DNA of 61,420 nt, taken from the NCBI GenBank assembly GCA_001783515.1, contig MFMN01000003.1, positions 1 through 61,420 of the forward strand, in the 5' to 3' direction. This DNA is from Candidatus Kaiserbacteria bacterium RIFCSPLOWO2_12_FULL_50_10. Its GTDB lineage: Bacteria; Patescibacteriota; Minisyncoccia; Phycocordibacterales; UBA918. The notes below the pieces were generated by a model, which was not told where the DNA came from, did not search any database, and was given only the letters and a program-made list of their open reading frames with translations. Numbering within the stretch: the first letter of the stretch is position 1; every line of letters starts with the position of its first letter. Positions 14,449-36,486 of this stretch are shown here, one piece after another. Position numbers and translations under genes: made by a program.

Positions 14449-14607
14449 GATAATAAGGAGTTCGGCCACGATCGCTTAGTATTTGTTGTTCGCTTGCGCT
14501 CCAAAATACTAAGCGTTGCCGACCCCGCCTTGCCTCCCATTATATAACTCCGCTAAAGCTACGTAATATAATGGGTTCCCAGACGTCCTTTTGAGCCCCT
14601 TATCGTC
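14449..14607 (+). ncRNA. Candidate structured RNA/element, tRNA-linked family, copy 1 (convergent with tRNA-Val)
   Basis: It has a terminal helix, conserved hairpin 1 (CGCTTAGTATTT/AAATACTAAGCG), TTGCCGACCCCGCCT, and hairpin 2 (CCCATTATAT/ATATAATGGG). It aligns end to end with the reverse complement of 33181-33354. The strand is inferred from shared orientation only. Confidence 0.45.
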
Positions 14608-14621
14608 TCACGGCGGGCAAC

Positions 14622-14647
14622 AAAATAAACGCGTACGCGTTTATTTT
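14622..14647. terminator. Palindromic bidirectional terminator between element and tRNA-Val
   Basis: AAAATAAACGCGTACGCGTTTATTTT is a perfect palindrome. Confidence 0.65.
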
Positions 14648-14655
14648 AGCCGCTG

Positions 14656-14729
14656 TGGACGATAAGGGACTCGAACCCCCGACCTCTGCAATGTCAATGC
14701 AGCGCTCTAACCAGCTGAGCTAACCGTCC
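14656..14729 (-). tRNA. tRNA-Val (anticodon GAC)
   Basis: The reverse complement reads GGACGGTTAGCTCAGCTGGTTAGAGCGCTGCATTGACATTGCAGAGGTCGGGGGTTCGAGTCCCTTATCGTCCA. It folds as a cloverleaf with a 7-bp acceptor stem and a TTGACAT anticodon loop. CCA is not encoded. Confidence 0.9.
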
Positions 14730-14839
14730 GTGTTTTGTAGTATAGCCTTTGTTTGTCGAAGCTGTGGCGACCGTCCGTGTTTCCGTTGCTGCTTTGTGCT
14801 CCGCATTATACATATTTTCATGACAAATACTAGCGTAAG

Positions 14840-16273
14840 ATGGTTATCTCTGAAAGAATCCAGACACGTTCTCGTCATGGAAAGAGTATGCTATACTTCA
14901 CCGCAATGAGAAACACGAAGTACATCCTGATTGCTTTTTTGATTATTTCACTAATGGCGGGAACGGCTATTTCGTTGCAGGCGTCAACCGCGTGTGATGC
15001 TTCAAATATCACGAATAAACCTGAAGCTGAGCTCAAAGAATATCTTCAAAAATGTGAAGAAGAGGCTGCGAAAGCACAGGCGGTGCTTAATCAGACAAAG
15101 ACCGAAGTGCGTTCAATTGATGGAGTGGTAAAGACACTTCAGACGAAAATTACTTCAGCAGAAAAGACGATCAAAAATAAGAACTCACTCATCGTTGAAC
15201 TTGGATCTGAGATTCGAACGCGACAAGCTCGTATTGAGGAGCTTGAAGCAGACATCGCTCGCGGTAAGGAATCACTTGCAGAGCTCATTCGTCGCACCAA
15301 TGAGGTTGGTGATTACACGCTCGCGGAGGTGTTCCTTAATACGAAGAATCTCTCTGAGTTTTATGTAGATATTGATAATTATACCGGTATCAAAGCAGAG
15401 CTTGAGCTCTATTTTTCACAGATTCGCGAGACACAGCTACAAACCGAGGGCGAGAAGACACAACTGTCAGAGAAACAAAATGATGAGCTTGATGCGAAAT
15501 ACATCATCGAGCAAGAGAAAAAGAGAATCGCAAGCGACCAGTTAGATCAAAAGAGGTTATTGAGTGCAAAACAGAGCACGGCAAAGGTGCAAGAAGCAAC
15601 CCTTGCAGAGATTCAGAAGAAAGCGGCCGCTATTCGTGCAGAATTGTTCAAGCTTCGTGATGCTGGTGCAATTCCTTTTGAGGACGCGCTCAAATATGCA
15701 CAGACTGCAGAACGTGCGACGGGTGTGCGTGCAGCATTTATCCTTGGTATTTTACGCCAGGAGTCAAACCTTGGATCGAACGTCGGTCGCTGCTATCTTG
15801 CTGACGAGGAAGGAAACGGTCGTTATATTTCAACGGGTGGTTACGTAGACGGTCTCATGCGTGAAGACGCGGTGCGGCAGGATGCCACGGCATTCCTTGC
15901 GCTCGTTAAAAAACTTGGGCGAGATCCGTATGCAACACCCGTGTCATGTCCGATATCGTCAACAACATATGGTGGCGCAATGGGTCCAACGCAGTTTATT
16001 CCGACAACATGGAAGGGTATCGAGGCGAGTCTTATGACTGCCCTTGGTGTAAGCGCAACCGACCCATGGAATCCACAGCACGCTATTATGGCGACAGCGG
16101 TATACGTGCAGCGACTTGGAGCGGCAAAGCAAACCTATACTGCCGAACGAGAAGCAGCAGCGCGGTATTATGCGGGAGGGAACTGGGCAACTATGGGGCT
16201 CTCGTATGCGGCGAGTGTATTAAATCACGCAGAAGGATTCCAGAAAAACATCGACTTCCTGGATCAGAACTAA
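14840..16273 (+). CDS. Secreted coiled-coil protein with C-terminal lytic transglycosylase (SLT-like) domain
   Basis: Signal anchor, then a long coiled coil, then ILGILRQESNLGSN..GGAMGPTQFIPTTW, typical of murein transglycosylases. The start is uncertain (14840 vs 14888). Confidence 0.65.
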   Translation: MVISERIQTRSRHGKSMLYFTAMRNTKYILIAFLIISLMAGTAISLQASTACDASNITNKPEAELKEYLQKCEEEAAKAQAVLNQTKTEVRSIDGVVKTLQTKITSAEKTIKNKNSLIVELGSEIRTRQARIEELEADIARGKESLAELIRRTNEVGDYTLAEVFLNTKNLSEFYVDIDNYTGIKAELELYFSQIRETQLQTEGEKTQLSEKQNDELDAKYIIEQEKKRIASDQLDQKRLLSAKQSTAKVQEATLAEIQKKAAAIRAELFKLRDAGAIPFEDALKYAQTAERATGVRAAFILGILRQESNLGSNVGRCYLADEEGNGRYISTGGYVDGLMREDAVRQDATAFLALVKKLGRDPYATPVSCPISSTTYGGAMGPTQFIPTTWKGIEASLMTALGVSATDPWNPQHAIMATAVYVQRLGAAKQTYTAEREAAARYYAGGNWATMGLSYAASVLNHAEGFQKNIDFLDQN

Positions 16274-16286
16274 TCGAGATGTATAG

Positions 16287-16313
16287 AAAAACACTGCTTG
16301 ATGCAGTGTTTTT
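16287..16313. terminator. Bidirectional terminator hairpin between convergent genes
   Basis: AAAAACACTGC-TTGAT-GCAGTGTTTTT. Confidence 0.75.
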
Positions 16314-16315
16314 GC

Positions 16316-16600
16316 TTATGCGGCGGTAGGGAGGACGTCTACAAACTTCTTTGAAACGGTGTTTCCGTCGAAGCCTGTCTTGCGGCCGGTGCGGAAGGCG
16401 AGTTTTCCAGCAGTCATAGCGAAGAGTGTGTGGTCGTGACCGACACCAACATTCTTGCCAGCTGCCATCTTCGTACCGCGTTGACGGACCAAGACCTCAC
16501 CAACACCAACGATCTGACCGTCAGCACGTTTCAAGCCAAGATAATTTGGCTGTGAATCGCGCCCGTTTTTCGAGGAACCTCCTGCTTTTTTGGTTGCCAT
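16316..16600 (-). CDS. rpmA: 50S ribosomal protein L27
   Basis: [37 protein letters not shown] is the L27 signature. Confidence 0.95.
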
Positions 16601-16628
16601 ATTCGCGTGAATTGATTATGATAAGTAA

Positions 16629-17021
16629 GTGCAGGGGATACTACAAGATTTTCAGAGAAAAATCAAGCACGCACTGCTTGATGATCATTTTTACATGACC
16701 TGCCTCATGATTGCAGTGGGTATTATAGCGTTTGAAATTGGGCGATTCTCAGTTCGCCAGGAGATACAAGCAGCGCCTGCACTTGTATTTCAAACATCTA
16801 CAAAAAGCGCAACAACATCTACTTTTGTAGAGAAAGGGGTAGTGGCTCGCGATACGCCCGACACCTCGGGGCTTCCGTATGTTGGCGCGAAGAGTGGGCG
16901 TGTGTACTACCCGGCAACCTGTGCATCTGCCACAAGGATTGCGGTAGCGAACCGGGTGTACTTTGCATCCGTTGCCGAAGCGGTGGCGGCAGGAAGAACG
17001 CCAAGCGCACAATGTAAATAA
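16629..17021 (+). CDS. Membrane-anchored protein with C-terminal Cys-containing sunset/Ada-like motif
   Basis: One TM helix, then C-terminal GRVYYPATCASATRIAVANRVYFASVAEAVAAGRTPSAQC. The listed start is GTG; ATG 16695 is an alternative. Confidence 0.45.
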   Translation: MQGILQDFQRKIKHALLDDHFYMTCLMIAVGIIAFEIGRFSVRQEIQAAPALVFQTSTKSATTSTFVEKGVVARDTPDTSGLPYVGAKSGRVYYPATCASATRIAVANRVYFASVAEAVAAGRTPSAQCK

Positions 17022-17065
17022 ACGTTGATTTTTCGGGTGTTCTCTGGTAGACTGCGCGCGTCATT

Positions 17066-17845
17066 ATGATGCATCTTTTTGGGACATATGCGCACGCTGC
17101 AGAAACGGCACATGAAGCGGGAAATGCGGCGATTTCTATTCATCTTGCATCAGAACAACTCGGAACTTTTTTTGGTGTCCCTATAACCAATACACTTGTG
17201 ACAACATGGGTCTCTATGCTGGCACTCCTTGTGCTTGCTGCGGTGATAGGCATGAATGTCCGCACTATTCCTGGAAAACTCCAGAGTGTTTTTGAAGCAC
17301 TTATCGCGTTTTCCTACAAATACATTAAGGAGACCTTGGGTGATGAGAGGCTTGCCGCCAGGTATTATCCCGTTATTATGACCATCTTTTTGTTTATTTT
17401 GAGCATTAACTGGGTGGCGCAGATTCCAGGGCTTGAGGCAATTACCTACAAAGGAAGCGCCTTGTTCCATGCTGGAACTGCGGATTTGAACATTACGCTT
17501 GCCTTTGCACTCATTGCCCTCACCACGATTGAGTTTGCAGGAATTGCGGCGCTTGGTGTAAAGGCGTACGGCGGCAAGTTCATTAACTTCCACTCACCCA
17601 TTGGCTTCGTAGTAGGTATTATCGAACTTATTTCAGAGCTTGCTCGACTTATCTCGTTCTCATTTCGTTTGTTTGGTAACATCTTTGCAGGGAAAGTGCT
17701 TCTCCTCGTGGTTGCATTCTTTGTGCCGTTCATCATGCCGGTGCCGCTCATGGCGTTTGAGATATTTGTAGGCTTTATCCAGGCGTTTGTTTTTGCCATT
17801 CTTACACTTTTCTTTATCAAGGCAGCAACCGAAATGCCACACTAA
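17066..17845 (+). CDS. atpB: ATP synthase F0 subunit a
   Basis: 259 aa, polytopic, with the conserved LISFSFRLFGNIFAG arginine motif. Confidence 0.9.
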   Translation: MMHLFGTYAHAAETAHEAGNAAISIHLASEQLGTFFGVPITNTLVTTWVSMLALLVLAAVIGMNVRTIPGKLQSVFEALIAFSYKYIKETLGDERLAARYYPVIMTIFLFILSINWVAQIPGLEAITYKGSALFHAGTADLNITLAFALIALTTIEFAGIAALGVKAYGGKFINFHSPIGFVVGIIELISELARLISFSFRLFGNIFAGKVLLLVVAFFVPFIMPVPLMAFEIFVGFIQAFVFAILTLFFIKAATEMPH

Positions 17846-17910
17846 CCTCGCGGTTAGACACAAGGGGAAACCTTTGTGTCTGCTCACGAGCAGATTACTA
17901 ACGTATATAA

Positions 17911-18150
<240 letters not shown>

Positions 18151-18268
18151 TTCTTCCGAAACGGGCGAATTTGCACTGGTTTCAGAAATATTCTACGCGC
18201 CGTACATGTGGTACGGCTTGGTCGAACACTTCTCTCAGCCAGCACAACTCCATCCCGTTTAGAAAGAA
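18151..18268 (+). repeat. Family-1 palindromic intergenic element, copy A
   Basis: TTCTTCCGAAACGGGCGAATTTGCA...CCCGTTTAGAAAGAA. It starts 0 nt after the atpE TAA. Confidence 0.85.
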
Positions 18269-18301
18269 TTAGATTGCTTTATTTAAAGTATCTTTTAATT
18301 T

Positions 18302-18742
18302 ATGGATTCTCTCATTCACGCATTTGGTCTCGACGTTAAGGTCGTTATCGTACAAATCGTTAACTTCACCATTCTTGCGTTCGCGCTTGTGTGGTTCTTG
18401 TACACGCCTATTCTCAAGGTGTTGCGTGAACGTGAAGAAACCATTGCGCAGGGTCTTGCAGATGCAGAAGCTGCCGCAAAGGCAAAGGATTCTGCAGAGG
18501 CAGAGCGCCTTACTACGCTCGCTGCAGCAGAGAAGGATGCTCGCGATATTGTGGCGAATGGCAAAAAGGTCTCTGATGAAAAGATGATGACCGCTCTTGC
18601 GGAAGCTGATGAAAAAGTAGCCTCGCGCATTGCTTTGGCAGAAGTGCGCGGTGAAGAAATTATTGCGGAGGCACGCAAGGCCGCAGAAGTAGAAGTTGCA
18701 AAACTTGCTATTCTCGACCTCGAAAAGAAACTCACGGCATAA
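18302..18742 (+). CDS. atpF: ATP synthase F0 subunit b
   Basis: 146 aa with an N-terminal TM helix and a long charged helix, in the expected operon position. Confidence 0.8.
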   Translation: MDSLIHAFGLDVKVVIVQIVNFTILAFALVWFLYTPILKVLREREETIAQGLADAEAAAKAKDSAEAERLTTLAAAEKDARDIVANGKKVSDEKMMTALAEADEKVASRIALAEVRGEEIIAEARKAAEVEVAKLAILDLEKKLTA

Positions 18743-18743
18743 T

Positions 18744-19094
18744 ATGGATCGTCTTATTACTACATACGCGCAGCTCATGCTTGCATATGCGCCTGAAAAG
18801 GTGCGTGCCAGCATGGAAAAGCGCGGGCACGGCAAGCTCTGGAAGCGTACGCTCCGTAAGGCCTTGCTTCTCGCAGGGAAAAGTACTGCCCGTACCGAGC
18901 CCGTTGTTATCCTTGCACGCGAAAGCGACAAGCAAAAACATGCTGAAAATATTGCAAAATCTGGCGGTGCGGAAGCGCGCGTTGCGATTGATGCAAGTAT
19001 TGTCGGTGGATTTATTCTCCAAAAAGGATTCTCACGCATCGACCGTTCCTACAAAACAGCACTTCATACACTGTATAAAAAAGTAACCGCATAA
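18744..19094 (+). CDS. atpH: ATP synthase F1 subunit delta (OSCP), short form (116 aa)
   Basis: Operon position between b and alpha. The C-terminal motif IDASIVGGFILQKGFSRIDRSYKTAL is delta-like. The start is the internal M17 of the track ORF, 1 nt after the atpF stop. Confidence 0.65.
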   Translation: MDRLITTYAQLMLAYAPEKVRASMEKRGHGKLWKRTLRKALLLAGKSTARTEPVVILARESDKQKHAENIAKSGGAEARVAIDASIVGGFILQKGFSRIDRSYKTALHTLYKKVTA

Positions 19095-19097
19095 ATT

Positions 19098-20648
19098 ATG
19101 TCAATCATCGAAACAATCAAGAAAGAACTCGAGAATATCTCGACTGACACACAGGCTGAGGAGGTTGGTGTGGTTTCTGCGGTATCTGACGGTATCGTTG
19201 AAATTGAAGGCATCACTGCAGCGCAGATGATGGAAATGGTCGTGTTTGAAACAACCGAAGGGAGGTCGCTTGCGGATACGCTTGCGCCCGATTCTGCGGT
19301 TATCGGACTCGTACTCAACCTCGAAGAAGACCTTGTTCGTGCGGTAGTTCTCGGCGAGTCACACACGGTCCGTGAAGGTATGGTTGTGCGTCGTACCGGT
19401 AAACTTCTCTCGATTCCTGTCGGAGAGGGTATTGTGGGGCGTGTCGTAAGTCCACTCGGCGCTACTATCGATGGAAAGGGTGCTGTGACAGGCGAAACAG
19501 TGGCAATGCCGATTGAGCGCGTTGCATACGGTGTTATGGAGCGTTCATCAGTGAACACACCAATTCACACCGGTATCAAGGCAATTGACTCAATGATCCC
19601 CATTGGTCGCGGACAGCGCGAGCTTATTATTGGTGACCGTGGTACGGGTAAGACAACTGTTGCACTTGACACTATCATTAACCAGAAATACGAACCAAAG
19701 GAAACTCGCCCGCTTTGTATCTACGTTGCCATTGGTCAGAAGCAGTCAAAGACGGCGAATATTATGCGCATTCTCGAAGAAGCAGGTGCGATGGAATACA
19801 CCACCATTGTTTCTGCGGGCGCGGGTGATGCATCGCCCCTTCTTTTCCTTGCACCATTTGCGGGTGCGGCTATTGGTGAATACTTCATGCAGAAGGGCAA
19901 AGATGTGCTCGTGGTCTTCGATGACCTTTCTAAGCATGCGGTAGCGTATCGCCAGATGTCACTCCTCCTTCGTCGTCCGCCAGGACGCGAAGCGTTCCCG
20001 GGAGACATCTTTTACCTCCATTCACGTCTTCTCGAACGTTCTGCAAAGCTTTCCGCAGAGCTCGGCGGCGGGTCACTTACTGCACTTCCGATTATCGAAA
20101 CACAGGAAGGTGACGTTTCTGCATACATTCCAACCAACGTGATTTCTATCACTGACGGTCAGATTTTCCTCGAAACAGATCTCTTCAACAAGGGTGTTCG
20201 CCCTGCGCTTAACGTTGGTATTTCTGTATCGCGCGTGGGTTCTTCTGCACAGACAAAGGCAATGAAGAAGGTTGCAGGCAAAATCCGTCTCGAACTCGCA
20301 CAGTTCCGTGAGCTCGAGGCCTTCATGCAATTTGCCTCAGACCTCGATGAAGAGACCAAGAAGCGTATCGATTCAGGACGCGCCTTTACGGAGCTCTTGA
20401 AGCAAAAGCAAGGAAACCCACAGCCATTCTATAAGCAGGTTGTTTCACTTTTTGCGGCAAACAGCGGCTATATGGAGGGGGTGCCTGTTTCACAGATCAA
20501 GAAACTTGAAGACGACTTTTTGAACTACATTGAACGCGAACATGCGCAGGTGCTTTCTACTATTGAGACAGCTCGTGATCTCTCTGATGAAGTACAGGCA
20601 ACGCTCAAGACAGCAATTGCAACCTTTAAAGAAACCTACACCGCATAG
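19098..20648 (+). CDS. atpA: ATP synthase F1 subunit alpha
   Basis: 516 aa with Walker A GDRGTGKT and overall alpha-subunit sequence. Confidence 0.95.
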   Translation: MSIIETIKKELENISTDTQAEEVGVVSAVSDGIVEIEGITAAQMMEMVVFETTEGRSLADTLAPDSAVIGLVLNLEEDLVRAVVLGESHTVREGMVVRRTGKLLSIPVGEGIVGRVVSPLGATIDGKGAVTGETVAMPIERVAYGVMERSSVNTPIHTGIKAIDSMIPIGRGQRELIIGDRGTGKTTVALDTIINQKYEPKETRPLCIYVAIGQKQSKTANIMRILEEAGAMEYTTIVSAGAGDASPLLFLAPFAGAAIGEYFMQKGKDVLVVFDDLSKHAVAYRQMSLLLRRPPGREAFPGDIFYLHSRLLERSAKLSAELGGGSLTALPIIETQEGDVSAYIPTNVISITDGQIFLETDLFNKGVRPALNVGISVSRVGSSAQTKAMKKVAGKIRLELAQFRELEAFMQFASDLDEETKKRIDSGRAFTELLKQKQGNPQPFYKQVVSLFAANSGYMEGVPVSQIKKLEDDFLNYIEREHAQVLSTIETARDLSDEVQATLKTAIATFKETYTA

Positions 20649-20665
20649 TTTGCGAACACAACAGT

Positions 20666-21571: not shown

Positions 21572-21572
21572 T

Positions 21573-21592: not shown

Positions 21593-21607
21593 ATTAGTCG
21601 CCATTAA

Positions 21608-22996
<1,389 letters not shown>

Positions 22997-22997
22997 A

Positions 22998-29490: not shown

Positions 29491-29524
29491 TGCGACACAT
29501 TAACGGGCTAATTCAATAAGGAGT

Positions 29525-29746: not shown

Positions 29747-29800
29747 CATAAAAAGAACAATCCTAGGCAAATGCTCGGGGTTGTTTTTTTGTCCCGCGTG

Positions 29801-29809
29801 TGGTATATT
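29801..29809 (+). promoter_or_regulatory. Extended -10 box TGGTATATT of the L3 operon, followed by ~129-nt leader
   Basis: tggtatatt at 29801; rplC ATG at 29939. The leader contains hairpins, for example CACGTCTGT/ACAGATGTG. Confidence 0.5.
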
Positions 29810-29938
29810 CCTCAGGCTTTTCAAGACCTACGTACCACGTCTGTGCATAACAGATGTGAGACCAATGGGCAACTAATATTCCCATGCTTGAAAGTACGAC
29901 GTATCCCGTCGGTATTATTCAGTAAGAATCTATCTCAC

Positions 29939-30562
29939 ATGATGAAATATGTTCTCGGCACCAAGGAGCGCATGACGCAAGTCTTCGACGCAACAGGTGT
30001 CGTTACACCCGCGACAGTTATCCATGTCACGCCACATACCGTCACTGCAGTGAAAACTACAGCGACTGATGGCTACGACGCGGTGCAGGTTGCTACTCGT
30101 GAACAAAAGGCTTCACGCGTTGCAAAGGCGCAGCAGACAACGCTCGGCGGTGTAAAAAAGTTCATCCAGGAAATGCGTCCGCGCACAACCAAGGATGAAT
30201 CAATCGAAGGTTTTGCACTCGGCGACACCTTCGATGCCTCTGCGTTTGCAGTTGGCGATGTTATCGAAGTCTCTGCAATTTCAAAGGGTAAGGGCTTCCA
30301 GGGTGTCGTGAAGCGCCATGGTTTCCATGGCGACAAGGCGACTCACGGACGCAAGCGTACGCACCGCGCCCCTGGTTCTATCGGAGCCACAGGTCTCGGA
30401 CGCGTTATCAAAGGTATGCGTATGGCCGGCCGTATGGGCGGCGATCGTGTTACCGTTAAAAACCTCACTGTCGTACAGGTCGACGCAGCTGCAGGCATCC
30501 TCGTAGTTTCGGGAGCAGTTCCGGGACACAAGGGTACACTCGTAGAAGTTCGCGCAAAATAA
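29939..30562 (+). CDS. rplC: 50S ribosomal protein L3
   Basis: MMKYVLGTKERMTQVFDATGVVTPATVI and ...FQGVVKRHGF.G are L3 signatures. The track ORF carries a spurious 56-aa N-extension. Confidence 0.95.
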   Translation: MMKYVLGTKERMTQVFDATGVVTPATVIHVTPHTVTAVKTTATDGYDAVQVATREQKASRVAKAQQTTLGGVKKFIQEMRPRTTKDESIEGFALGDTFDASAFAVGDVIEVSAISKGKGFQGVVKRHGFHGDKATHGRKRTHRAPGSIGATGLGRVIKGMRMAGRMGGDRVTVKNLTVVQVDAAAGILVVSGAVPGHKGTLVEVRAK

Positions 30563-30566
30563 TCGT

Positions 30567-31259
30567 ATGAAAACTACAATCTATACACAGGCAGCAAAGG
30601 CCGCTGGCGAACTCGAGCTTCCAGAAAACACCTTCGGTGTTGCATGGAATGATCAGTTCATGCATGACATGATCGTGAGCTATCAGTCAAACGCTCGTTC
30701 TGGCACCGCACACACCAAGGGTCGTGGCGATGTCGTCGGGACGGGCGCAAAGCCATGGAATCAAAAGGGAACTGGTCGGGCACGTCACGGTGACCGTAAG
30801 AGTCCAATCTGGAAGGGCGGCGGTGTCGCACACGGTCCAACGTCAGCAAGGAACTTCACCAAGAAGATCAATAAAAACGCACGTGCTCGCGCACTTGCCA
30901 TTGCTCTCTCAAAGAAGTTTGCTGATGGAGAAATCCTCTTTGTCGACGCGCTCACGTTTGCAGCTCCAAAGACAAAGGACGCACGCACCGTGCTCTCAAC
31001 CCTCGGTTCTATCGAAGGAAAGGAAGCGCTTGCTACACGTCGCAAGAACGCAGCAACTATCATTCTCGCCGATCGTGACATGAATACCGAAAAGAGCTTT
31101 GCAAACTTCGGCAACATCACGGTTACCCAAGCAAAGGATGTGAACGTTGTTGAACTTCTTACCAATAAGTTTGTGGTCATCGCTGGCGCAAAGGACTCAC
31201 TTGAGACTCTTGTAAAGCGAACGGCAACAAAGACTGCTCGTAAGGCAGCTAATGCATAA
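30567..31259 (+). CDS. rplD: 50S ribosomal protein L4
   Basis: 230 aa with TKGRGDVVGTGAKPWNQKGTGRARHGDRKSPIWKGGGVAHGP. Confidence 0.95.
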   Translation: MKTTIYTQAAKAAGELELPENTFGVAWNDQFMHDMIVSYQSNARSGTAHTKGRGDVVGTGAKPWNQKGTGRARHGDRKSPIWKGGGVAHGPTSARNFTKKINKNARARALAIALSKKFADGEILFVDALTFAAPKTKDARTVLSTLGSIEGKEALATRRKNAATIILADRDMNTEKSFANFGNITVTQAKDVNVVELLTNKFVVIAGAKDSLETLVKRTATKTARKAANA

Positions 31260-31620
31260 TAATTCTATGGCATTGTTTGGTTCAAAGAAAAAGACCGCGA
31301 CAGCGGCACGCAAGGTTGCAGCAAAGGGTGACACTACTCTCGACCGCAACATTGGCAGTAAAATCCTCCGCCCACGCATCACCGAAAAGGCAATGCGTGT
31401 TGCAGAGAAGAACGTCTATGTGTTTGAAATCGCTCAGAAGGCAACAAAGACCGACGTTCGCGATGCAATCCGTACACTCTATGGAGTGAATCCGGTTGCA
31501 ATCCGCACCACCACACGAGTAGCTCACGAAGCTGCAAAGCGTGGTCGCAAGATTCATGTCGCAGGCATTAAAAAGGCTTACGTACAATTGAAGGAAGGCG
31601 ATACTATTACGGCAGCGTAA
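31252..31620 (+). CDS. rplW: 50S ribosomal protein L23
   Basis: ILRPRITEKAMRVAEKNVYVFEIAQKATKTDVRDAI. The start may be 31252 (overlapping rplD) or 31267. Confidence 0.9.
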   Translation: MHNNSMALFGSKKKTATAARKVAAKGDTTLDRNIGSKILRPRITEKAMRVAEKNVYVFEIAQKATKTDVRDAIRTLYGVNPVAIRTTTRVAHEAAKRGRKIHVAGIKKAYVQLKEGDTITAA

Positions 31621-31669
31621 TAGTTTGACAAGTATCGGAAACGTGTTGTTTCCGGCAAAGTAAATTAGT

Positions 31670-32530
31670 ATGAAAAAATATAATCCAACCTCTGAAGGCC
31701 GCCGCGGCATGACGGGCATTGAGTACCGCAAGGTACTTACGTCAAACCAGAGCGCGCCGCTCAAATCGCTCACGAAGGGGATGCGTTCAACAGGTGGACG
31801 CAACTCACAGGGGCGTACGACGATGTTCAACCGTGGCGGTGGCGTAAAGCGCACCTATCGTGTTGTCGACTTCAAGTTCGACAAGAAGGACATTCCAGCA
31901 ACTATCGAGTCAATCGAATACGACCCATTCCGCTCAGGATTCATCGCGCTCGTACTCTACAAGGACGGTGAACGCCGCTACATCCTTGCTCCAAAGGAGC
32001 TTAAGGTGGGCGATACGTTCGTAGTCTCAGCAGAGGCACGCCCAGCTATCGGTAATCGTTTGCCGCTTGGCAAGCTTTCTGCAGGTACCTTCGTGTACAA
32101 CATCGAGACAAAACCACTTGGTGGCGCACGTCTCGTACGTTCAGCAGGTACACGCGCAGAAGTTGTTGCGCAGGATGGTGTGTACACACACATCCGCCTT
32201 CCTTCAACCGAAGTTCGTAAAATTATCGGAACCGCATGGGCAACCGTTGGTACCGTTTCAAACGAAGAGCACAGCCTCGTCGTTATCGGTAAGGCAGGAC
32301 GTGCACGTCACATGGGGCTTCGTCCGAAGACTCGTGGTACCGCAAAGAACGCCGTCGACCACCCACACGGTGGTGGTGAGCAGCGAAGCCCTCGTGGTCA
32401 TCGCCGCGAACGCACCAAGCAGGGTCGCCCAACAGGTAAGGGACAAAAGACACGATCACCGAAGAAGCACTCAAACAAGTTTATCGTGTCTCGTCGCAAG
32501 CCGGGCAAGCTTATGACTTCACGCAAATAA
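31670..32530 (+). CDS. rplB: 50S ribosomal protein L2
   Basis: 286 aa with GRNSQGRTTMFNRGGGVKR and NAVDHPHGGGEQRSPRG. Confidence 0.95.
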   Translation: MKKYNPTSEGRRGMTGIEYRKVLTSNQSAPLKSLTKGMRSTGGRNSQGRTTMFNRGGGVKRTYRVVDFKFDKKDIPATIESIEYDPFRSGFIALVLYKDGERRYILAPKELKVGDTFVVSAEARPAIGNRLPLGKLSAGTFVYNIETKPLGGARLVRSAGTRAEVVAQDGVYTHIRLPSTEVRKIIGTAWATVGTVSNEEHSLVVIGKAGRARHMGLRPKTRGTAKNAVDHPHGGGEQRSPRGHRRERTKQGRPTGKGQKTRSPKKHSNKFIVSRRKPGKLMTSRK

Positions 32531-32542
32531 TAAGAAACGTAT

Positions 32543-32806
32543 ATGAAAACAGATATTCATCCAAAGGGATACCGTAAGGTAATCTTCAAGGATACGTCAG
32601 CAAACGTATCGTTCCTTATTGGCTCAACCGTGAAGGAAGACGGTAAGGACACCTGGACCGATGGTCAGGAGTACCCGATGAAAGAAATCGGCATCTCATC
32701 TGCATCGCATCCATTCTACACTGGTCAGGAAAAGGTCATGGACACTGCCGGACGTGTAGAGAAATTTAAGGCAAAGATGTCAAAAGTTGCATCTCGCAAG
32801 AAATAA
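32543..32806 (+). CDS. rpmE: 50S ribosomal protein L31 (type B-like, no CxxC pair)
   Basis: MKTDIHPKGYRKVIFKD...SSASHPFYTGQEKVMDTAGRVEKF. Confidence 0.9.
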   Translation: MKTDIHPKGYRKVIFKDTSANVSFLIGSTVKEDGKDTWTDGQEYPMKEIGISSASHPFYTGQEKVMDTAGRVEKFKAKMSKVASRKK

Positions 32807-32809
32807 TAG

Positions 32810-32929
32810 TTCTTCCAAAATGGGCGAATTTGCATCAGCTTCGGAAATTTTTATCCTCGCCGTAGGTTGACTACGGCTCCGGTAAAAATTTACCTCCAGC
32901 CGACGCAACTTCATCCCATTTAGAAAGAA
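32810..32929 (+). repeat. Family-1 palindromic intergenic element, copy C
   Basis: It starts 3 nt after the rpmE TAA: TTCTTCCAAAATGGGCGAATTTGCA...CCCATTTAGAAAGAA. Confidence 0.85.
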
Positions 32930-33056
32930 GTACACGTGCGGGAAAACATTTGACAATTTGCTAGATTTCGCTATTATAGCAACACATTCAGGAGACGAAA
33001 GTTTCCGAAATGGTCATAACTGACCGAGCGGCACTACGAAGGTATGTGCCTACCTC

Positions 33057-33129
33057 GGGCCTGTAGCTCATCTGGTAGAGCGCCCCGCTTGCACCGGGGA
33101 GGTAGCGGGTTCAAGTCCTGTCGGGTCCA
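33057..33129 (+). tRNA. tRNA-Ala (anticodon TGC)
   Basis: GGGCCTGTAGCTCATCTGGTAGAGCGCCCCGCTTGCACCGGGGAGGTAGCGGGTTCAAGTCCTGTCGGGTCCA. It folds as a cloverleaf with G3:U70 and a CTTGCAC anticodon loop. Confidence 0.9.
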
Positions 33130-33179
33130 CAAAGACATAAAACCAACGCGTCTAGCGTTGGTTTTATCTTGTCTTTGTG
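33128..33179. terminator. Long perfect hairpin after tRNA-Ala
   Basis: CACAAAGACATAAAACCAACGC-GTCTA-GCGTTGGTTTTATCTTGTCTTTGTG. Confidence 0.7.
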
Positions 33180-33180
33180 A

Positions 33181-33354
33181 GACCCGACAGGACTTGAACG
33201 CCGGAGCCGGTATACAAGATTGTTACTGATACGAAGCTTTTGCGTAGTACAGTAACAATACTTGTCGGAGAGGCGGGGTCGGCAACGCTTAGTATTTTTG
33301 GAGCGGCAGCGAACAACAAATACTTTAGCGATTGTGACCAAGTCCTGTCGGGTC
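33181..33354 (-). ncRNA. Candidate structured RNA/element, tRNA-linked family, copy 2 (convergent with tRNA-Ala)
   Basis: It has a 16-bp terminal helix GACCCGACAGGACTTG/CAAGTCCTGTCGGGTC, the conserved core, and hairpin ATTGTTACTG/CAGTAACAAT. It aligns with 14449-14607. Confidence 0.45.
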
Positions 33355-33364
33355 ATCCCGCATT

Positions 33365-33691
33365 TTACTCGACCGTAAAATTATACCCAGAAAATCTCCC
33401 AGAAAGTATTTGACGCGTGACATCACGGTCTGGTTCAGTCCCGAAAACAGTACTTGTCCCGTAGAGTGTTGCATGGGTGCCTTCCATCTTTATTTTTCCG
33501 CCACCTTTGCAAACACAGATGACATCGTCACCAAGTTCCTTTTGAAACAACGCGAAGAGGTCTTTGTGCCACTCTGCAATGTGTGGTGGCGCTACAGCAA
33601 TATATATTTCTGCACCACAGGTAATCACAATAAATTTTCCACTTTCGAGATGCTCAGTAGGCATAAACACCTGTTGGACTATGTTTTTCAT
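33365..33691 (-). CDS. Hypothetical protein (108 aa)
   Basis: The ORF has AAGTATACT plus 6 nt immediately upstream of the ATG (33698-33703). I recognise no family. Confidence 0.5.
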   Translation of the reverse strand: MKNIVQQVFMPTEHLESGKFIVITCGAEIYIAVAPPHIAEWHKDLFALFQKELGDDVICVCKGGGKIKMEGTHATLYGTSTVFGTEPDRDVTRQILSGRFSGYNFTVE

Positions 33692-33777
33692 ACATGCAGT
33701 ATACTTGAAAAAGTTAGGAAAGAAAAAGGTTTCCTAGATTACACCCAATTTCTCAAAAACTACGGTATACTACACCC

Positions 33778-34152
33778 ATGAACGAACCAACGACACGCTC
33801 GCTTGATGAACTGCTCGGTAAGGAAACGTATGTGTATCAAGGGAAGACCTATGCACGCAGAGACCTCTATAAAGCATCATCGCTCAAAACGGTGCTCATT
33901 ACAGCGTATGTGGTTGTGGTAGTGGTTGCTATTGGTGGCGTAGCGGCGTGGTCGCTCGGTGCTACGATTCCGCTTCCTGATTTTTTGCTGGGGATTCAAG
34001 AAGAAGCGCCGGTCGTGCAGGTGCGAGAGCGTGCAGTAGCGCCACCCGTGGCTCCTGCAGAGGTTGCGACAACAACGGATGCGAACGGGCAGGTGAGTAC
34101 ATCGGTAGAGGTTGTCGGCGCGACGAGTACCGCGAGTACCACGACTCAGTAA
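33778..34152 (+). CDS. Membrane-anchored hypothetical protein
   Basis: 124 aa with one TM helix (VLITAYVVVVVVAIGGVAAW). CGGTATACT plus 6 nt precedes the ATG. Confidence 0.5.
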   Translation: MNEPTTRSLDELLGKETYVYQGKTYARRDLYKASSLKTVLITAYVVVVVVAIGGVAAWSLGATIPLPDFLLGIQEEAPVVQVRERAVAPPVAPAEVATTTDANGQVSTSVEVVGATSTASTTTQ

Positions 34153-34198
34153 TTGCTTATAGGGGCGTGTACGTATTGTTGAGGTTGTTGTTCTAACG

Positions 34199-34266
34199 CC
34201 TGGGTTCCTCCTGAATGACAAAAGTTACCTGTAATGCTTTAGATTGATTGGATGGTTAAAACCATG
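34199..34266 (+). repeat. Family-2 element, left-half copy
   Basis: CCTGGGTTCCTCCTGAATGACAAAAGTTACCTGTAATGCTTTAGATTGATT... is homologous to 53411-53475. No right inverted repeat is present. Confidence 0.55.
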
Positions 34267-34302
34267 TTATAAGAAAACTCGCATTGCTGCGAGTTTTCTT
34301 TT

Positions 34303-34376
34303 TGGTAGCGGGAACTGGAATCGAACCAGTGTCTTGAGGTTATGAGCCTCACGAGGTACCTCTCCTCTATCCCGCT
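34303..34376 (-). tRNA. tRNA-Met type (anticodon CAT; elongator Met or Ile2), CCA encoded
   Basis: The reverse complement reads AGCGGGATAGAGGAGAGGTACCTCGTGAGGCTCATAACCTCAAGACACTGGTTCGATTCCAGTTCCCGCTACCA. It lacks the three G-C pairs of an initiator anticodon stem. Confidence 0.85.
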
Positions 34377-34414
34377 GTGTAATCTTGCTGGTGTTGTTTT
34401 ATAGACCGACACAG

Positions 34415-34472
34415 GTCTTGAGGTTATGAGTCATATAATTCCTCTTGCGAGGTACCTCTCCTCTATCCCGCT
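34415..34472 (-). pseudogene. Partial tRNA-Met copy (5' half plus anticodon loop, 17-nt replacement in anticodon stem)
   Basis: The first 25 nt and the 16 nt CTCATAACCTCAAGAC are identical to the intact gene 38 nt downstream. TGAGG is replaced by CAAGAGGAATTATATGA. There is no T arm and no acceptor 3' strand. Confidence 0.7.
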
Positions 34473-34550
34473 ATATTTTCTGATGATGTTTGGGAACCTG
34501 TACCATAACAAAAAAGATGACAAAAGTCCAGTCGCTCATTTGATGTGGCG

Positions 34551-34559
34551 TGGTATAGT
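34551..34559 (+). promoter_or_regulatory. Extended -10 box TGGTATAGT, 6 nt upstream of mreB ATG
   Basis: The sequence reads tggtatagt, gcaagg, then ATG (34566). Confidence 0.6.
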
Positions 34560-34565
34560 GCAAGG

Positions 34566-35582
34566 ATGTTAGAAGAACTGTTCGGCGTAAGTAAGGTTGG
34601 TATTGATCTCGGCACAACGAGCGTGCTGGTGTATGTGCCAGGGAAAGGGGTGGTAACGTATGAACCATCAGTTGTTGCAGTGTCTGATGACCAGCAGATT
34701 CTTGCGGTGGGCGACGAAGCGAAGCGCATGATTGGACGTACGCCTGAGCATATTCGTGCGTATCGCCCGATGAAGGACGGGGTGATTGCAGACTATCGTG
34801 TGACGGAGGCTATGCTTCGATATTTTTTGCGCCAAGCATGCGGACGATTCTCGCTGCGCAGGCCCGACGTGCTTGTCTCGGTGCCATCAGGGGTTTCGTC
34901 AACAGAGAAGCGCGCAGTCATCGAAGCGGCGCTCAATGCTGGCGCGAAGAATGCCTATGTGCTCAAGGAGCCGATTCTTGCAGCTCTTGGCGCGGGGCTT
35001 CCTATTTATGAGCCGTGCGGACATCTCATTGTTGATATTGGTGGCGGCACGACTGATGCGGCGGTTATTTCGCTTGGATCAATTGTTGCCGCAACGTCAG
35101 TCCGCTGCGCCGGGAACAAAATAGATGCAACGATTGTCGATTATGTAAAGAAGACCTACAATCTTGCGATTGGTGAAAAAACTGCCGAGGATATTAAAAT
35201 AGGTATTGGCTCAGCACTTCCTGTTGAAGAGGAACTCTCCATGGAAGTAAAAGGACGTGATCTCATGTCGGGGCTTCCGCGCACGATTGAACTCAAGACA
35301 AATGAGGTGGTGCGCGCTACACAGAAAGAGCTTCGCGAGATTGTGGGTGCTATCAAAACCGTTTTCCAAGATACGCCGCCAGAGCTTGCTGCGGATATTA
35401 TTGATTACGGGATTATTCTTACCGGAGGCTCGTCACAACTTCGCAACCTTGCAGAGTTTGTGAAGCGTCGTACGGGGGTAAAAACAAAAGTGGCAGAGCA
35501 GGCGCAGTTTTGTGTGGTGAAGGGGACGGGAATAGCACTGCAGCATTTAGACATGTATAAACAGGCCCTAATCAGAAAATAG
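34566..35582 (+). CDS. mreB: Rod shape-determining protein MreB
   Basis: VGIDLGTTSVLVYV, RPMKDGVIADY and DIGGGTTD are actin-fold MreB motifs. Confidence 0.9.
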   Translation: MLEELFGVSKVGIDLGTTSVLVYVPGKGVVTYEPSVVAVSDDQQILAVGDEAKRMIGRTPEHIRAYRPMKDGVIADYRVTEAMLRYFLRQACGRFSLRRPDVLVSVPSGVSSTEKRAVIEAALNAGAKNAYVLKEPILAALGAGLPIYEPCGHLIVDIGGGTTDAAVISLGSIVAATSVRCAGNKIDATIVDYVKKTYNLAIGEKTAEDIKIGIGSALPVEEELSMEVKGRDLMSGLPRTIELKTNEVVRATQKELREIVGAIKTVFQDTPPELAADIIDYGIILTGGSSQLRNLAEFVKRRTGVKTKVAEQAQFCVVKGTGIALQHLDMYKQALIRK

Positions 35583-35584
35583 CA

Positions 35585-35704
35585 GAACTTCCAAAATTGG
35601 CACATTTGCACATGCTTCAGTCGCTCGCTTCTCGCGGTACGTTGGGTACCGCTCCTGCGCTCACTTCTTCCAGCCAGCACAACTGCGCTCAATTTTGAAA
35701 GTTC
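35585..35704 (+). repeat. Family-1 palindromic intergenic element, copy D (variant interior)
   Basis: It starts 2 nt after the mreB TAG: GAACTTCCAAAATTGGCACATTTGCA...CTCAATTTTGAAAGTTC. Confidence 0.8.
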
Positions 35705-35780
35705 TGCCTTCGCGGGAGTTGCGGTATGCTTTGTTGCGGCGGATTGTCTTTTGCGACGATTTATGTATAATGCGCTAACC

Positions 35781-36056
35781 ATGACACACGAGCGAGAAGA
35801 AGACATACAGGCTCTTCATGAGGAGCTCGGAGAACTTCGCAAGGAGCTTGCGAAGAACTCGTCATTGGTAAAGAAGATATACCGCCATACCGCTATTGCG
35901 AACGCAATGCGATTCATCTGGCTCGCTATCATTGTGGGTATTCCCGTTGTTGCCTATATTTTTGCGGGTTCGTTTATTGAAACGATTGCAAATTATATCA
36001 ATGCGCAAATCCAGGAAATCCTCAATGCATACCTCCAGCAGTATCTTGGAAGGTAA
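35781..36056 (+). CDS. Coiled-coil plus TM hypothetical protein
   Basis: MTHEREEDIQALHEELGELRKELAKN followed by a TM segment. TGTATAAT plus 9 nt precedes this ATG (M11 of the track ORF). Confidence 0.45.
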   Translation: MTHEREEDIQALHEELGELRKELAKNSSLVKKIYRHTAIANAMRFIWLAIIVGIPVVAYIFAGSFIETIANYINAQIQEILNAYLQQYLGR

Positions 36057-36072
36057 AATACTATATACCAAC

Positions 36073-36228
36073 GCTTGGGTAGCTCAGTTTGAGGAGACCG
36101 ACCGCTTCCGCGGACCAGGTCGGTCTCGCTGCTAAGGATGTCGGCCGCCGCCGACACTATCAAAAATGTTTGCTTTCGCAAACATGGCAGATAGAGCACT
36201 CATTGCCTGCGATGGAATGCTGAAGAGT
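36073..36228 (+). pseudogene. Degenerate tRNA-Phe copy 1 with ~102-nt D-loop insert
   Basis: GCTTGGGTAGCTCAGTT is identical to the intact gene. Then comes an insert at 36090-36191 with three hairpins, then TAGAGCACTC, an 18-nt insert and CTGAAGAG. There is no T arm. Confidence 0.65.
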
Positions 36229-36235
36229 ATAATAC

Positions 36236-36308
36236 GCTTGGGTAGCTCAGTTGGTAGAGCACTCCCCTGAAGAGGGAGGGGTCACCAGTTCGACCCTGGT
36301 CCCAAGCA
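36236..36308 (+). tRNA. tRNA-Phe (anticodon GAA)
   Basis: GCTTGGGTAGCTCAGTTGGTAGAGCACTCCCCTGAAGAGGGAGGGGTCACCAGTTCGACCCTGGTCCCAAGCA. It folds as a canonical cloverleaf. Confidence 0.9.
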
Positions 36309-36317
36309 CAAAATAAA

Positions 36318-36486
36318 TAGCTCAGTTGGACACCGCTCCACTACGTTCCGCGGCGCAGAGCCTGCACTCGCGATCAAAAAGAACATGCCCTACGGGACAC
36401 GTTCTTTTTGTCACTCGTTTGACTCTGATAGAGCACTCCCCTGAAGAGGGAGGGTGTCGCCGAGTTCCGAACCCTGGTCCCAAGCA
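36318..36486 (+). pseudogene. Degenerate tRNA-Phe copy 3 with 99-nt D-loop insert, lacking 5' acceptor strand
   Basis: TAGCTCAGTTGG, then an insert at 36330-36428, then TAGAGCACTCCCCTGAAGAGGGAGGG (identical anticodon arm). A corrupted T arm follows, then CCCTGGTCCCAAGCA. Confidence 0.65.

What the first reader, a model, noticed from the sequence alone, without database searches (positions are those of the whole stretch)
14449..36486. All four tRNA genes in the window carry partial copies of themselves within 250 nt
- tRNA-Val: copies of its 3' segment in both orientations.
- tRNA-Ala: an inverted plus a direct copy of its 3' segment.
- tRNA-Met: a copy of its 5' half.
- tRNA-Phe: degenerate copies on both sides.

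Four out of four is not expected for ordinary bacterial tRNA loci. It points to a genome-wide process acting on tRNA genes. Candidates are repeated site-specific integration and excision, gene conversion between tRNA genes and decoys, or tRNA-templated elements. No integrase or transposase gene is present in this window.
Basis: partly seen in the sequence, partly recalled or inferred. Interest (0 to 1): 0.6.

Follow-up and report, generated by a model that had tools for sequence, protein, structure and literature searches.

The report
Hairpin insertion modules at tRNA genes
The partial tRNA copies are real: they mark small, protein-less, tightly folded DNA modules inserted at two fixed spots (T loop and D loop) of about half the tRNA genes of this tiny CPR bacterium, each supplying a spare gene end, and I found no paper that describes such modules.

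Summary
Observation confirmed and extended. All four tRNA genes in the window carry partial self-copies. Genome-wide, 17 of 36 tRNAs do (none of 150 random 1-kb windows per tRNA scores as high). A sister genome has them at 15 of 30 tRNAs. A same-family genome without the modules has 0 of 30.

The copies are junction marks of two classes of non-coding module.
- The 3' class sits at the T loop. It brings a new tRNA 3' end, a terminator, an arm complementary to that end (the inverted copy) and a 140-nt body with strong covariation. The old 3' end is pushed downstream (the direct copy).
- The 5' class is the mirror image at the D loop, with a 100-nt three-hairpin body.

Modules differ between sister genomes, stack serially, and are missing on both sides of tRNA-Phe in a related strain's contig. 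The 3'-class body occurs in 25 of 31 related genomes. It also lies behind tmRNA, rplL and rplB, where the new and old gene ends differ mostly synonymously, so the module arrived from a diverged lineage.

The only recombinase shared by both genomes is a Xer-type enzyme, so the mobilising activity is unknown. This scan has noted the same kind of module in other Patescibacteria genomes. My literature searches found no description.

The parts
14655..14729 (-). tRNA-Val(GAC), intact
   Evidence: ARAGORN; Rfam tRNA 66.9 bits
14622..14647 (-). Val 3'-class module: terminator-like palindrome centre directly behind the tRNA
   Evidence: 13+13 nt perfect inverted repeat
14590..14607 (-). Val module: arm complementary to the tRNA 3' end (the inverted copy)
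   Evidence: 18 nt, 89% complementary to 14658-14675; 16/18
14458..14591 (-). Val module: structured body (two long hairpins)
   Evidence: Covariance model R1 match, E 3.8e-16
14444..14463 (-). Val: displaced old 3' end of the tRNA (degenerate direct copy), followed by its own old terminator at 14416-14441
   Evidence: 12/15 match; terminator-like site
14760..14782 (-). Val: displaced copy of the leader plus tRNA 5' end, 47 nt upstream (5' class without a hairpin body)
   Evidence: 23-nt direct repeat, 83%
33057..33130 (+). tRNA-Ala(TGC), intact
33109..33199 (+). Ala: 91-nt palindrome made of the tRNA 3' end, trailer, bidirectional terminator (33137-33167) and inverted arm (33181-33199)
   Evidence: Inverted repeats I1 and I4; terminator-like on both strands; dominates the fold of a read-through RNA
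33200..33338 (+). Ala module: 139-nt structured body (type A1)
   Evidence: R1 168 bits; 22 of 51 pairs with compensatory changes; folds better on the tRNA-sense strand in 10 of 10 copies
33339..33354 (+). Ala: displaced old 3' end of the tRNA (direct copy from T-loop C56)
   Evidence: 16/16
34303..34376 (-). tRNA-Met(CAT), intact
34415..34472 (-). Met: upstream pseudo-copy of tRNA positions 1-46 with the anticodon-stem 5' strand replaced by 17 nt. In the sister genome the related pseudo-copy lies downstream instead
36236..36309 (+). tRNA-Phe(GAA), intact
36071..36089 (+). Phe 5' class: displaced old 5' end (leader plus positions 1-17)
   Evidence: 19-nt direct repeat with 36234-36252
36090..36191 (+). 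Phe 5' class: three-hairpin body (type B) sitting in the D loop of the displaced copy
   Evidence: Model R2 112.6 bits; 16 of 31 pairs with compensatory changes; the orthologous copy in the sister genome has covarying stems
36190..36235 (+). Phe 5' class: D-arm piece (positions 19-30, junction GA|TAG instead of GG|TAG), then a 32-nt spacer with a TATAAT box abutting the intact tRNA
36310..36470 (+). Phe 3' side: insert made of 8 nt, tRNA positions 8-19, a 99-nt hairpin-rich filler, positions 20-45 and a degenerate T-arm 5' side. Absent in a related strain
   Evidence: joint 36292>36471 in run X9
36471..36487 (+). Phe: second copy of the last 17 nt of the tRNA (from T-loop A58), followed by a terminator hairpin at 36492-36521
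   Evidence: 17/17; the 17 nt are ambiguous at the X9 joint

Best explanation
The partial copies are the junction marks of small non-coding insertion modules that target the two most conserved spots of tRNA genes.

A 3'-class module is joined at the T loop (T55|C56). It carries a fresh copy of the last ~19 nt of that tRNA and its own terminator. It also carries an arm complementary to the tRNA 3' end, which with the new end forms a long palindrome centred on the terminator, and a ~140-nt two-hairpin body. The gene stays intact. Its former 3' end, with its former terminator, is pushed downstream and decays. The inverted copy is therefore the module's arm, and the direct copy is the displaced old end.

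A 5'-class module is the mirror image at the D loop (G18/G19). The former promoter and the first 17-19 nt are pushed upstream. They are followed by a ~100-nt three-hairpin body, a short D-arm piece and a new promoter-proximal stretch that runs into the intact tRNA.

Modules arrive from other lineages with their own gene end, pile up serially at the same site, and can be lost again between the direct repeats.

What is shown: the anatomy, the fixed junctions, the covariation, the turnover between sister genomes, an empty site, and the wide distribution.

What is inferred: the modules are mobilised in trans by an activity not encoded in them. My preferred version is that the complementary arm and matching gene end specify the target for a host or phage-borne recombination function (about 0.3). 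The alternative is DNA uptake followed by one-sided homologous plus microhomology joining at the conserved T-loop or D-loop boxes (about 0.2).
For: Frequency: 17 of 36 tRNAs score above every null window, 15 of 30 in sister genome G001, and 0 of 30 in module-free relative G010.

Fixed junctions: in 24 loci from 14 genomes the old copy starts at C56 in 16, and the arm reaches T54/G53 in 15. All 5'-class copies end with GA|TAG in the D loop.

Body under selection for structure: 22 of 51 pairs (A1) and 16 of 31 pairs (B) carry compensatory changes.

Turnover: G001 has A1 modules behind Lys-TTT and Arg-GCG where G000 has none. The tRNA-Phe downstream side differs between the two genomes. The Ala module is 98% identical between them while flanking genes are 79-87% identical.

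Empty site: one 934-nt contig of run X9 joins 36051>36234 and 36292>36471. That is a tRNA-Phe without either flanking copy, and the second joint falls in the 17-nt direct repeat.

Serial stacking: tRNA, module, old end, old terminator, then an older module (G006 Gln; G001 Arg-GCG and Gly-TCC).

Replacement end from another lineage: at rplL of G013 the new and old last 54 nt differ at 13 positions with one amino-acid change.

Old terminators follow the old ends.

A cargo-bearing relative exists: a 4.1-kb island with a reverse transcriptase lies at tRNA-Lys-CTT, flanked by 203-nt repeats made of the tRNA end, palindrome and B body.
Against: No mobilising enzyme is identified. G001, which has the most copies, has only a Xer-type recombinase.

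No excised or circular form was seen, and no insertion event was observed. An empty site bounded by direct repeats could equally come from deletion.

How one body type acquires arms and ends that match more than 15 different tRNAs is unexplained.

The B modules sit at the same tRNAs in both sister genomes, and their stems covary between orthologues. This looks like long vertical retention under selection and suits a cellular function as well as a parasite.

The Met pseudo-copies carry no hairpin body, so they may have a simpler origin in tandem duplication.
Confidence: 0.6

Rival explanations
1. The copies are scars of ordinary integrase-borne prophages or genomic islands. These integrated at the T loop or other sublocations of tRNA genes and later lost their interior, leaving attL and attR close together.
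For: Integration of mobile elements is the established source of tRNA gene fragments (PMC9897764). The direct repeats run from the T loop to the gene end, as at classical att sites. A 4.1-kb island at tRNA-Lys-CTT and a serine recombinase gene ending at tRNA-Ile(TAT) exist in this genome.
Against: The modules have a uniform length (138-140 nt body) and a conserved, covarying fold across an order-level group. Random deletion remnants would not. The complementary arm is not a feature of att scars. The same body follows more than 15 tRNA isotypes plus tmRNA, rplL and rplB. No integrase other than Xer is present in G001, which has 14 copies. None of 18 viral contigs that matched a core pattern matched the model.
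Confidence: 0.12
2. The bodies are cellular cis-acting RNAs, such as leader or trailer elements for processing, termination or stability of tRNA transcripts. The tRNA pieces around them arise by local duplication and gene conversion, not by insertion.
For: There is strong covariation. For the A1 body there is a clear preference for the tRNA-sense strand: more stable in 10 of 10 copies, 17 G-U cells against 2. B bodies are kept at orthologous tRNAs in both sister genomes with compensatory changes.
Against: The A1 body lies behind a terminator-like hairpin. A read-through RNA would lock the tRNA 3' end into a 40-bp hairpin. Presence differs between sister genomes and strains. Whole genomes of the same family lack them. 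The serial stacks and the rplL old end with synonymous differences need arrival of foreign DNA.
Confidence: 0.15
3. Insertion happens at the RNA level. A structured RNA joins to the folded tRNA at its elbow, where D-loop G18/G19 contact T-loop 55/56. It is then copied back into DNA by a reverse transcriptase and recombined into the gene.
For: The two junction sites are the nucleotides that touch in the folded tRNA (established tRNA structure; junctions). A reverse transcriptase sits in the island flanked by module repeats.
Against: G001 has no reverse transcriptase hit. The arms copy the trailer and terminator, not CCA. rplL and rplB targets have no elbow. D-loop and T-loop boxes are also simply the most conserved DNA blocks shared among tRNA genes.
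Confidence: 0.06
4. The copies are chance matches or assembly artefacts of a metagenome-assembled genome.
For: The genome is a 28-contig MAG. The sister genome's contigs break at the Ala palindrome.
Against: Scores exceed all null windows. The same structures are found in independent assemblies of other samples and studies and in many genomes.
Confidence: 0.01

Closest known systems
Integrative elements (prophages, ICEs, genomic islands) using the T-loop sublocation of tRNA/tmRNA genes (Williams 2002 and Reiter 1989, as cited in PMC9897764)
   Same: The insertion is inside the gene's 3' part. The element supplies a replacement end so the gene stays intact. The old end remains as a direct partial copy. 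Repeated use of the same site gives tandem arrays.
   Different: The modules measure 140-230 nt in all and have no integrase or any other gene. The body is a conserved, covarying fold. Each carries an arm complementary to the target. There is a mirror-image class that replaces the 5' end and promoter at the D loop.
Phage 21 / e14 integration into the icd gene of E. coli (from my knowledge, not tested here)
   Same: The element carries an alternative 3' end of a protein-coding gene that differs mostly at synonymous sites. The rplL case in relative G013 shows the same pattern (13 of 54 nt, one amino acid).
   Different: Those are phage-sized elements with their own integrase. Here the inserted unit is 234 nt and non-coding.
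MITEs and IS200/IS605-derived palindrome-associated elements (PATEs)
   Same: They are small, non-autonomous, hairpin-rich, multi-copy, and present or absent between strains.
   Different: The 'terminal repeats' here are copies of the local target and differ at every locus. No matching transposase was found: Y1, TnpB, rve, DDE_Tnp_1 and IS110 are all negative. Insertion is strictly oriented and site-specific with respect to a gene end.
E. coli tyrT operon 178-bp repeats / rtT RNA
   Same: Copies of the tRNA 3' end are repeated in the trailer of a tRNA operon.
   Different: That is a single locus of tandem repeats, with no inverted arm and no family spread over many tRNAs. The Rfam scan of these loci gave only tRNA.
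Folded single-strand recombination substrates: integron attC sites and the CTX-phage attP hairpin used by Xer (from my knowledge)
   Same: A hairpin in one strand mimics the duplex target, and the joint lies at the foot of the stem. A host Xer enzyme can serve a gene-less or integrase-less element.
   Different: Those target attI or dif, not tRNA genes. I have no evidence that Xer acts here, and no dif-like core was recognised.

Membership tests
Integrase-mediated integrative element at a tRNA gene | Direct repeat of the tRNA segment from the crossover point to the 3' end flanks the insert, with an intact tRNA at one junction | tested here: met
Integrase-mediated integrative element at a tRNA gene | A tyrosine or serine integrase encoded by the element, or at least in the genome | tested here: not met
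   The modules are non-coding. Only a Xer-type recombinase is present in both genomes. One large serine recombinase is found in G000 only.
Integrase-mediated integrative element at a tRNA gene | Excised circular form with attP | not testable with these tools
   Only contigs, not raw reads, were available.
MITE | Terminal inverted repeats that are constant for the family | tested here: not met
   The arm and the old end match the neighbouring tRNA and differ at each locus.
MITE | A related autonomous transposon or transposase in the genome | tested here: not met
   rve, DDE_Tnp_1 and IS110 gave no hits in G000 or G001.
IS200/IS605-derived PATE | Y1 (TnpA) transposase available; TnpB often present | tested here: not met
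Structured cis-acting RNA (trailer or leader element) | Conserved secondary structure supported by covariation | tested here: met
Structured cis-acting RNA (trailer or leader element) | The element is transcribed | not testable with these tools
   No RNA holder was listed.
Structured cis-acting RNA (trailer or leader element) | Membership of a described RNA family | tested here: not met
   Rfam 15 gave only tRNA, at gathering score and at E up to 5.
Retron / group II intron type retroelement | Reverse transcriptase in the genome | tested here: not met
   RVT_1 was found only in G000 (the C23 island) and not in G001, which has 14 copies.
Integron attC-type or Xer-dependent (IMEX) element | A folded hairpin that mimics the target duplex, with the joint at the foot of the stem | tested here: inconclusive
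   The new end, terminator and arm form a perfect hairpin whose foot lies at the T-loop junction. Neither a dif-like core nor recombinase action was tested.

The most novel reading that the evidence does not exclude
The complementary arm is a guide. These modules would be natural, protein-less, retargetable insertion cassettes. A short arm (12-28 nt) that pairs with the target, plus a conserved folded body, would recruit a host enzyme (for example the single Xer recombinase or a repair function). That enzyme would join the cassette at the foot of the arm-target helix of any conserved gene end (tRNA, tmRNA, rplL, rplB). This would be a nucleic-acid-guided integration system different from CRISPR-associated transposons, IS110 bridge RNAs and group II introns.
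Probability: 0.2. Interest if true: 0.9.

Novelty: new variant of a known kind. Interest (0 to 1): 0.7.

Why it matters
tRNA genes are the classic landing sites of integrating elements, but always with a recombinase on board. Here about half of all tRNA genes in two 0.8-Mb genomes have been remodelled by gene-less modules of 140-230 nt. So have tmRNA and ribosomal-protein genes in relatives. The modules replace the gene's end and its terminator or promoter.

If the modules are mobile, the streamlined and supposedly transposon-poor CPR bacteria carry an abundant, unrecognised class of mobile DNA. Its targeting rule can be read from the sequence (arm plus matching end), which invites tests of programmable insertion.

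If instead they are cellular RNAs, they are a large unannotated family tied to tRNA expression.

There are practical consequences either way. The modules create false tRNA calls: ARAGORN's tRNA-Leu(TAA) on contig C9 is one. They break assemblies at palindromes. They also mimic prophage att sites in island-finding software.

Tried and rejected
- Rfam at gathering score and at E up to 5 on the Ala and Phe loci gave only tRNA.
- Genome searches of G000 and G001 for Y1_Tnp, the TnpB zinc-ribbon domain, rve, DDE_Tnp_1 and IS110 gave nothing. One sub-threshold TnpB-domain hit turned out to be an RNHCP-domain protein.
- Sequencing runs: no RNA holder was listed, and all holders are kept as contigs. 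Transcription, RNA ends and circular forms could therefore not be examined.
- Pattern scan of viral contigs with a 20-base core pattern gave 18 hits, none of which matched model R1.
- The same pattern on genome contigs mostly hit unrelated high-GC genomes. It was too unspecific for a distribution map. Only the Paceibacteria and Saccharibacteria contigs were confirmed with R1.
- The 99-nt filler downstream of tRNA-Phe (36330-36428) has no second copy in the genome.
- I compared old ends with the present T stems to ask whether the whole T arm arrived with the module. Two Lys loci suggest so, but mismatches across loci are spread over T stem and acceptor, so this is not decisive.
- I looked for the far end of the serine-recombinase element at tRNA-Ile(TAT). 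No second copy of that tRNA's end is in the assembly.
- Four literature searches found no description of such modules. The library is not exhaustive.
- I rejected a retron-like reading (closing helix as a1/a2) because G001 has no reverse transcriptase. I rejected a TnpB omega-RNA-like reading (scaffold plus guide) because no TnpB or IscB is present.


Full report
**What is there**

The window is contig C3 (positions 1-61420) of a 0.82-Mb, 28-contig genome of about 50% G+C that encodes a tmRNA. An earlier scan note calls it Candidatus Kaiserbacteria (CPR). I did not check the name. The size fits, and the module described below also matches contigs titled Paceibacteria and Saccharibacteria.

ARAGORN and Rfam agree on four tRNA genes. 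For each tRNA I scored the best ungapped match to its own flanks (500 nt each side, both strands). I compared this with 150 random 1-kb windows of the same genome. The four window tRNAs score 12, 19, 25 and 26, against a null mean of about 8.3 and a maximum of 11-12. Contigs assembled independently from another study's soil metagenome reproduce the Ala, Met and Phe loci with 0-3 differences. The structures are therefore not artefacts of this assembly.

**It is genome-wide, and it tracks a repeat family**

In the whole genome 17 of 36 tRNAs exceed every null window, and 15 reach a score of 14 or more. In the same-genus genome G001, 15 of 30 tRNAs scanned reach 14 or more. In G010, a same-family genome of another genus, none of 30 does. 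G010 is also the family member with no match to the module model.

**Anatomy of the 3' class**

The same layout recurs behind Val-GAC, Ala and Gly-GCC, with variants behind Trp, Pro, Leu-GAG and Met. In G001 it recurs behind Lys-TTT, Val-GAC, Leu-GAG, Leu-TAA, Gly-GCC, Gly-TCC, Arg-GCG and Ala. Read in the tRNA sense the order is:
- the tRNA;
- a short trailer with an A-tract;
- a G+C-rich hairpin;
- a T-tract and the mirror image of the trailer;
- an inverted copy of the tRNA 3' end that reaches into the T loop;
- a 138-140-nt body;
- a direct copy of the tRNA 3' end that starts in the T loop.

The body has conserved junction and loop sequences and two long hairpins whose stems vary. In ten copies from two genomes, 22 of 51 predicted pairs show compensatory changes. 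All ten copies fold more stably on the tRNA-sense strand than on the other (mean -63.4 against -52.7 kcal/mol). There are 17 G-U cells on the tRNA-sense strand against 2 on the other.

A covariance model of the body (R1) finds it in 25 of 31 related genomes and in 17 of 18 genomes of the family, with up to 16 copies per genome. Of 24 sampled loci in relatives, 17 lie 27-230 nt downstream of a tRNA on the same strand. The full layout is kept in distant genomes. The junctions are regular. In 24 tRNA loci from 14 genomes the direct copy begins at C56 of the T loop in 16, and the inverted arm ends at T54 or G53 in 15.

**Anatomy of the 5' class**

The mirror image occurs upstream of Phe, Ile-GAT, Lys-CTT and Leu-TAG, and of Lys-TTT in G001. 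The order is:
- a copy of the leader and tRNA positions 1-17/19;
- a ~100-nt body of three hairpins;
- the dinucleotide GA and a D-arm piece starting at TAG (positions 20 to 28-57);
- 32-40 nt with a -10-like box;
- the intact tRNA.

The body thus sits in the D loop of a displaced 5' copy. It shows compensatory changes in 16 of 31 pairs but no strand preference. Model R2 finds this body only in the genus (9 and 7 copies), mostly at the same tRNAs in both genomes. Val, Met and Gln-CTG have displaced 5' copies without a hairpin body. The same body also occurs downstream of Thr-TGT, Tyr and Lys-CTT, next to 3' partial copies.

**Evidence that these are insertions which replace gene ends**

1. Old ends are followed by their own terminator-like hairpins.

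2. Stacks occur. Behind tRNA-Gln of G006 the order is module, perfect old end, old terminator, then an older module of another subtype. Behind Arg-GCG and Gly-TCC of G001 the right end of an older subtype follows the first old end.

3. Sister genomes differ. G001 has modules behind Lys-TTT and Arg-GCG where G000 has none. The downstream side of tRNA-Phe carries different inserts in the two genomes. The Met pseudo-copy is upstream in one and downstream in the other. The Ala module is 98% identical between the two genomes although flanking genes are 79-87% identical.

4. A 934-nt contig from a 2024 groundwater run (a related strain) joins 36051 to 36234 and 36292 to 36471. That is a tRNA-Phe without either flanking copy, and the second joint falls within the 17-nt direct repeat.

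5. Model R1 also hits behind a tmRNA-like 3' end, behind rplL and behind rplB in relatives. At rplL the unit is 234 nt. The new and the old last 54 nt of the reading frame differ at 13 positions but at only one amino acid. Both ends were therefore functional coding ends in diverged lineages, and the module arrived with its own. The arm there is 12 nt long and spans the junction.

6. A cargo-bearing relative exists in this genome. It is a 4.1-kb segment with a reverse transcriptase and a SocA/Panacea-domain protein. It is flanked by 203-nt direct repeats (96-97% identical), each made of the tRNA-Lys-CTT 3' end, the terminator palindrome and a B body.

**What moves them is unknown**

G000 and G001 each have one tyrosine recombinase, and it is Xer-type. 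Y1 transposase, TnpB, rve, DDE_Tnp_1 and IS110 families are not found. G000 alone has a reverse transcriptase, in the island. G000 alone also has a large serine recombinase, whose gene ends at tRNA-Ile(TAT). G001 has the larger number of modules and neither enzyme.

The arm always matches the functional new end and extends a few nucleotides beyond the junction, so it reads like a specification of the uninterrupted target. With the new end it forms a hairpin that mimics the target duplex, and the joint lies at its foot. This resembles the folded substrates of integron integrases and of Xer in CTX-phage integration. That comparison rests on my knowledge and was not tested.

An alternative is uptake of DNA from relatives, with homologous pairing in the conserved tRNA on one side. 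The other side would join by microhomology in the T-loop or D-loop boxes, which many tRNA genes share. At two Lys loci the old end's T-stem strand does not fit the present T stem, as if the whole T arm had arrived with the module. The pattern across loci is not decisive.

A read-through RNA of the Ala locus would fold the tRNA 3' end into the long hairpin (-159.8 kcal/mol, z = -11.3). Termination before the arm is therefore needed for tRNA function, which argues for a DNA-level role of the arm.

**Comparison with what is known, and verdict**

Partial tRNA copies are the known signature of integrating elements (PMC9897764). The T-loop junction, the restored gene and the tandem build-up fit that kind. 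Four features do not fit: the absence of any gene, the uniform and covarying fold, the target-complementary arm, and the 5' class that replaces the promoter and 5' end. No Rfam family matches. Four full-text searches found no description.

Earlier notes of this scan report the same kind of 3' module in other Patescibacteria genomes. My analysis agrees with them. It adds the D-loop class, the strand test, the control genomes, the empty tRNA-Phe site and the rplL/rplB ends.

I rate this a new variant of a known kind, with a real chance that the mechanism is new.

Noticed in passing
window 32810-32929, 35585-35704 and other sites (G000 C27:4998-5126, C10:54415-54539, C4:27609-27727, C4:50438-50546): A separate ~120-nt palindromic repeat family lies directly after stop codons. 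The copy after the gene ending at 32806 is absent from a related strain's contig (joint 32789>32943 with 19 other letters, run X10). The one at 35592-35743 is replaced by 149 other letters in run X9.
   Followed up: partly
G000 C23:1369-5671 (locus L029 169-4471): A 4.1-kb island at tRNA-Lys(CTT) holds a 343-aa reverse transcriptase, a SocA/Panacea-domain protein and three ORFs without Pfam match. It is flanked by 203-nt direct repeats. A 39-nt repeat pair (L029 2155-2193 and 3045-3083, 87%) inside it might be a template/variable repeat pair of a diversity-generating retroelement.
   Followed up: partly
G000 C18:1922-3400: A 492-aa large serine recombinase gene ends inside or at the 3' end of tRNA-Ile(TAT) (3388-3461, minus strand). 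No second copy of that tRNA end is in the assembly. The gene is absent from the sister genome.
   Followed up: partly
G000 C9:15526-15611: ARAGORN's 'tRNA-Leu(TAA)' here is not a tRNA. It is made of the end of a B body, an inverted copy of part of tRNA-Tyr and a terminator hairpin, and the unit is duplicated at 15323-15406.
   Followed up: partly
G000 C10:33311-33415: The leader and trailer of tRNA-Thr(TGT) are complementary over 14 nt and extend the acceptor stem, like a processing stalk, followed by a T-run.
   Followed up: no
G000 C27:23848-23999: An A1 module has a terminator palindrome, an arm and two direct old-end copies but no intact tRNA upstream. The arm specifies a tRNA 3' end that none of the 36 predicted tRNAs has.
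   Followed up: partly
window 36228-36233; 36056-36070: A -10-like box lies only 2-6 nt before the first base of tRNA-Phe and of its displaced 5' copy. This suggests very short or no 5' leaders on tRNA transcripts.
   Followed up: no
D-loop G18/G19 and T-loop 55/56 junctions (all loci): The two insertion points are the nucleotides that contact each other at the elbow of the folded tRNA. This may be coincidence, because they are also the most conserved DNA blocks.
   Followed up: no
G001 C16 end / C18 start: The sister genome's assembly breaks exactly at the tRNA-Ala palindrome. Such modules probably fragment CPR assemblies and hide tRNA loci.
   Followed up: no
G000 C4:54290-54395: tRNA-Lys(TTT) is followed by a ~70-nt insert bounded by a 21-nt direct repeat of the tRNA's last 9-10 nt plus trailer. 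My ungapped scan missed this further small insertion.
   Followed up: no
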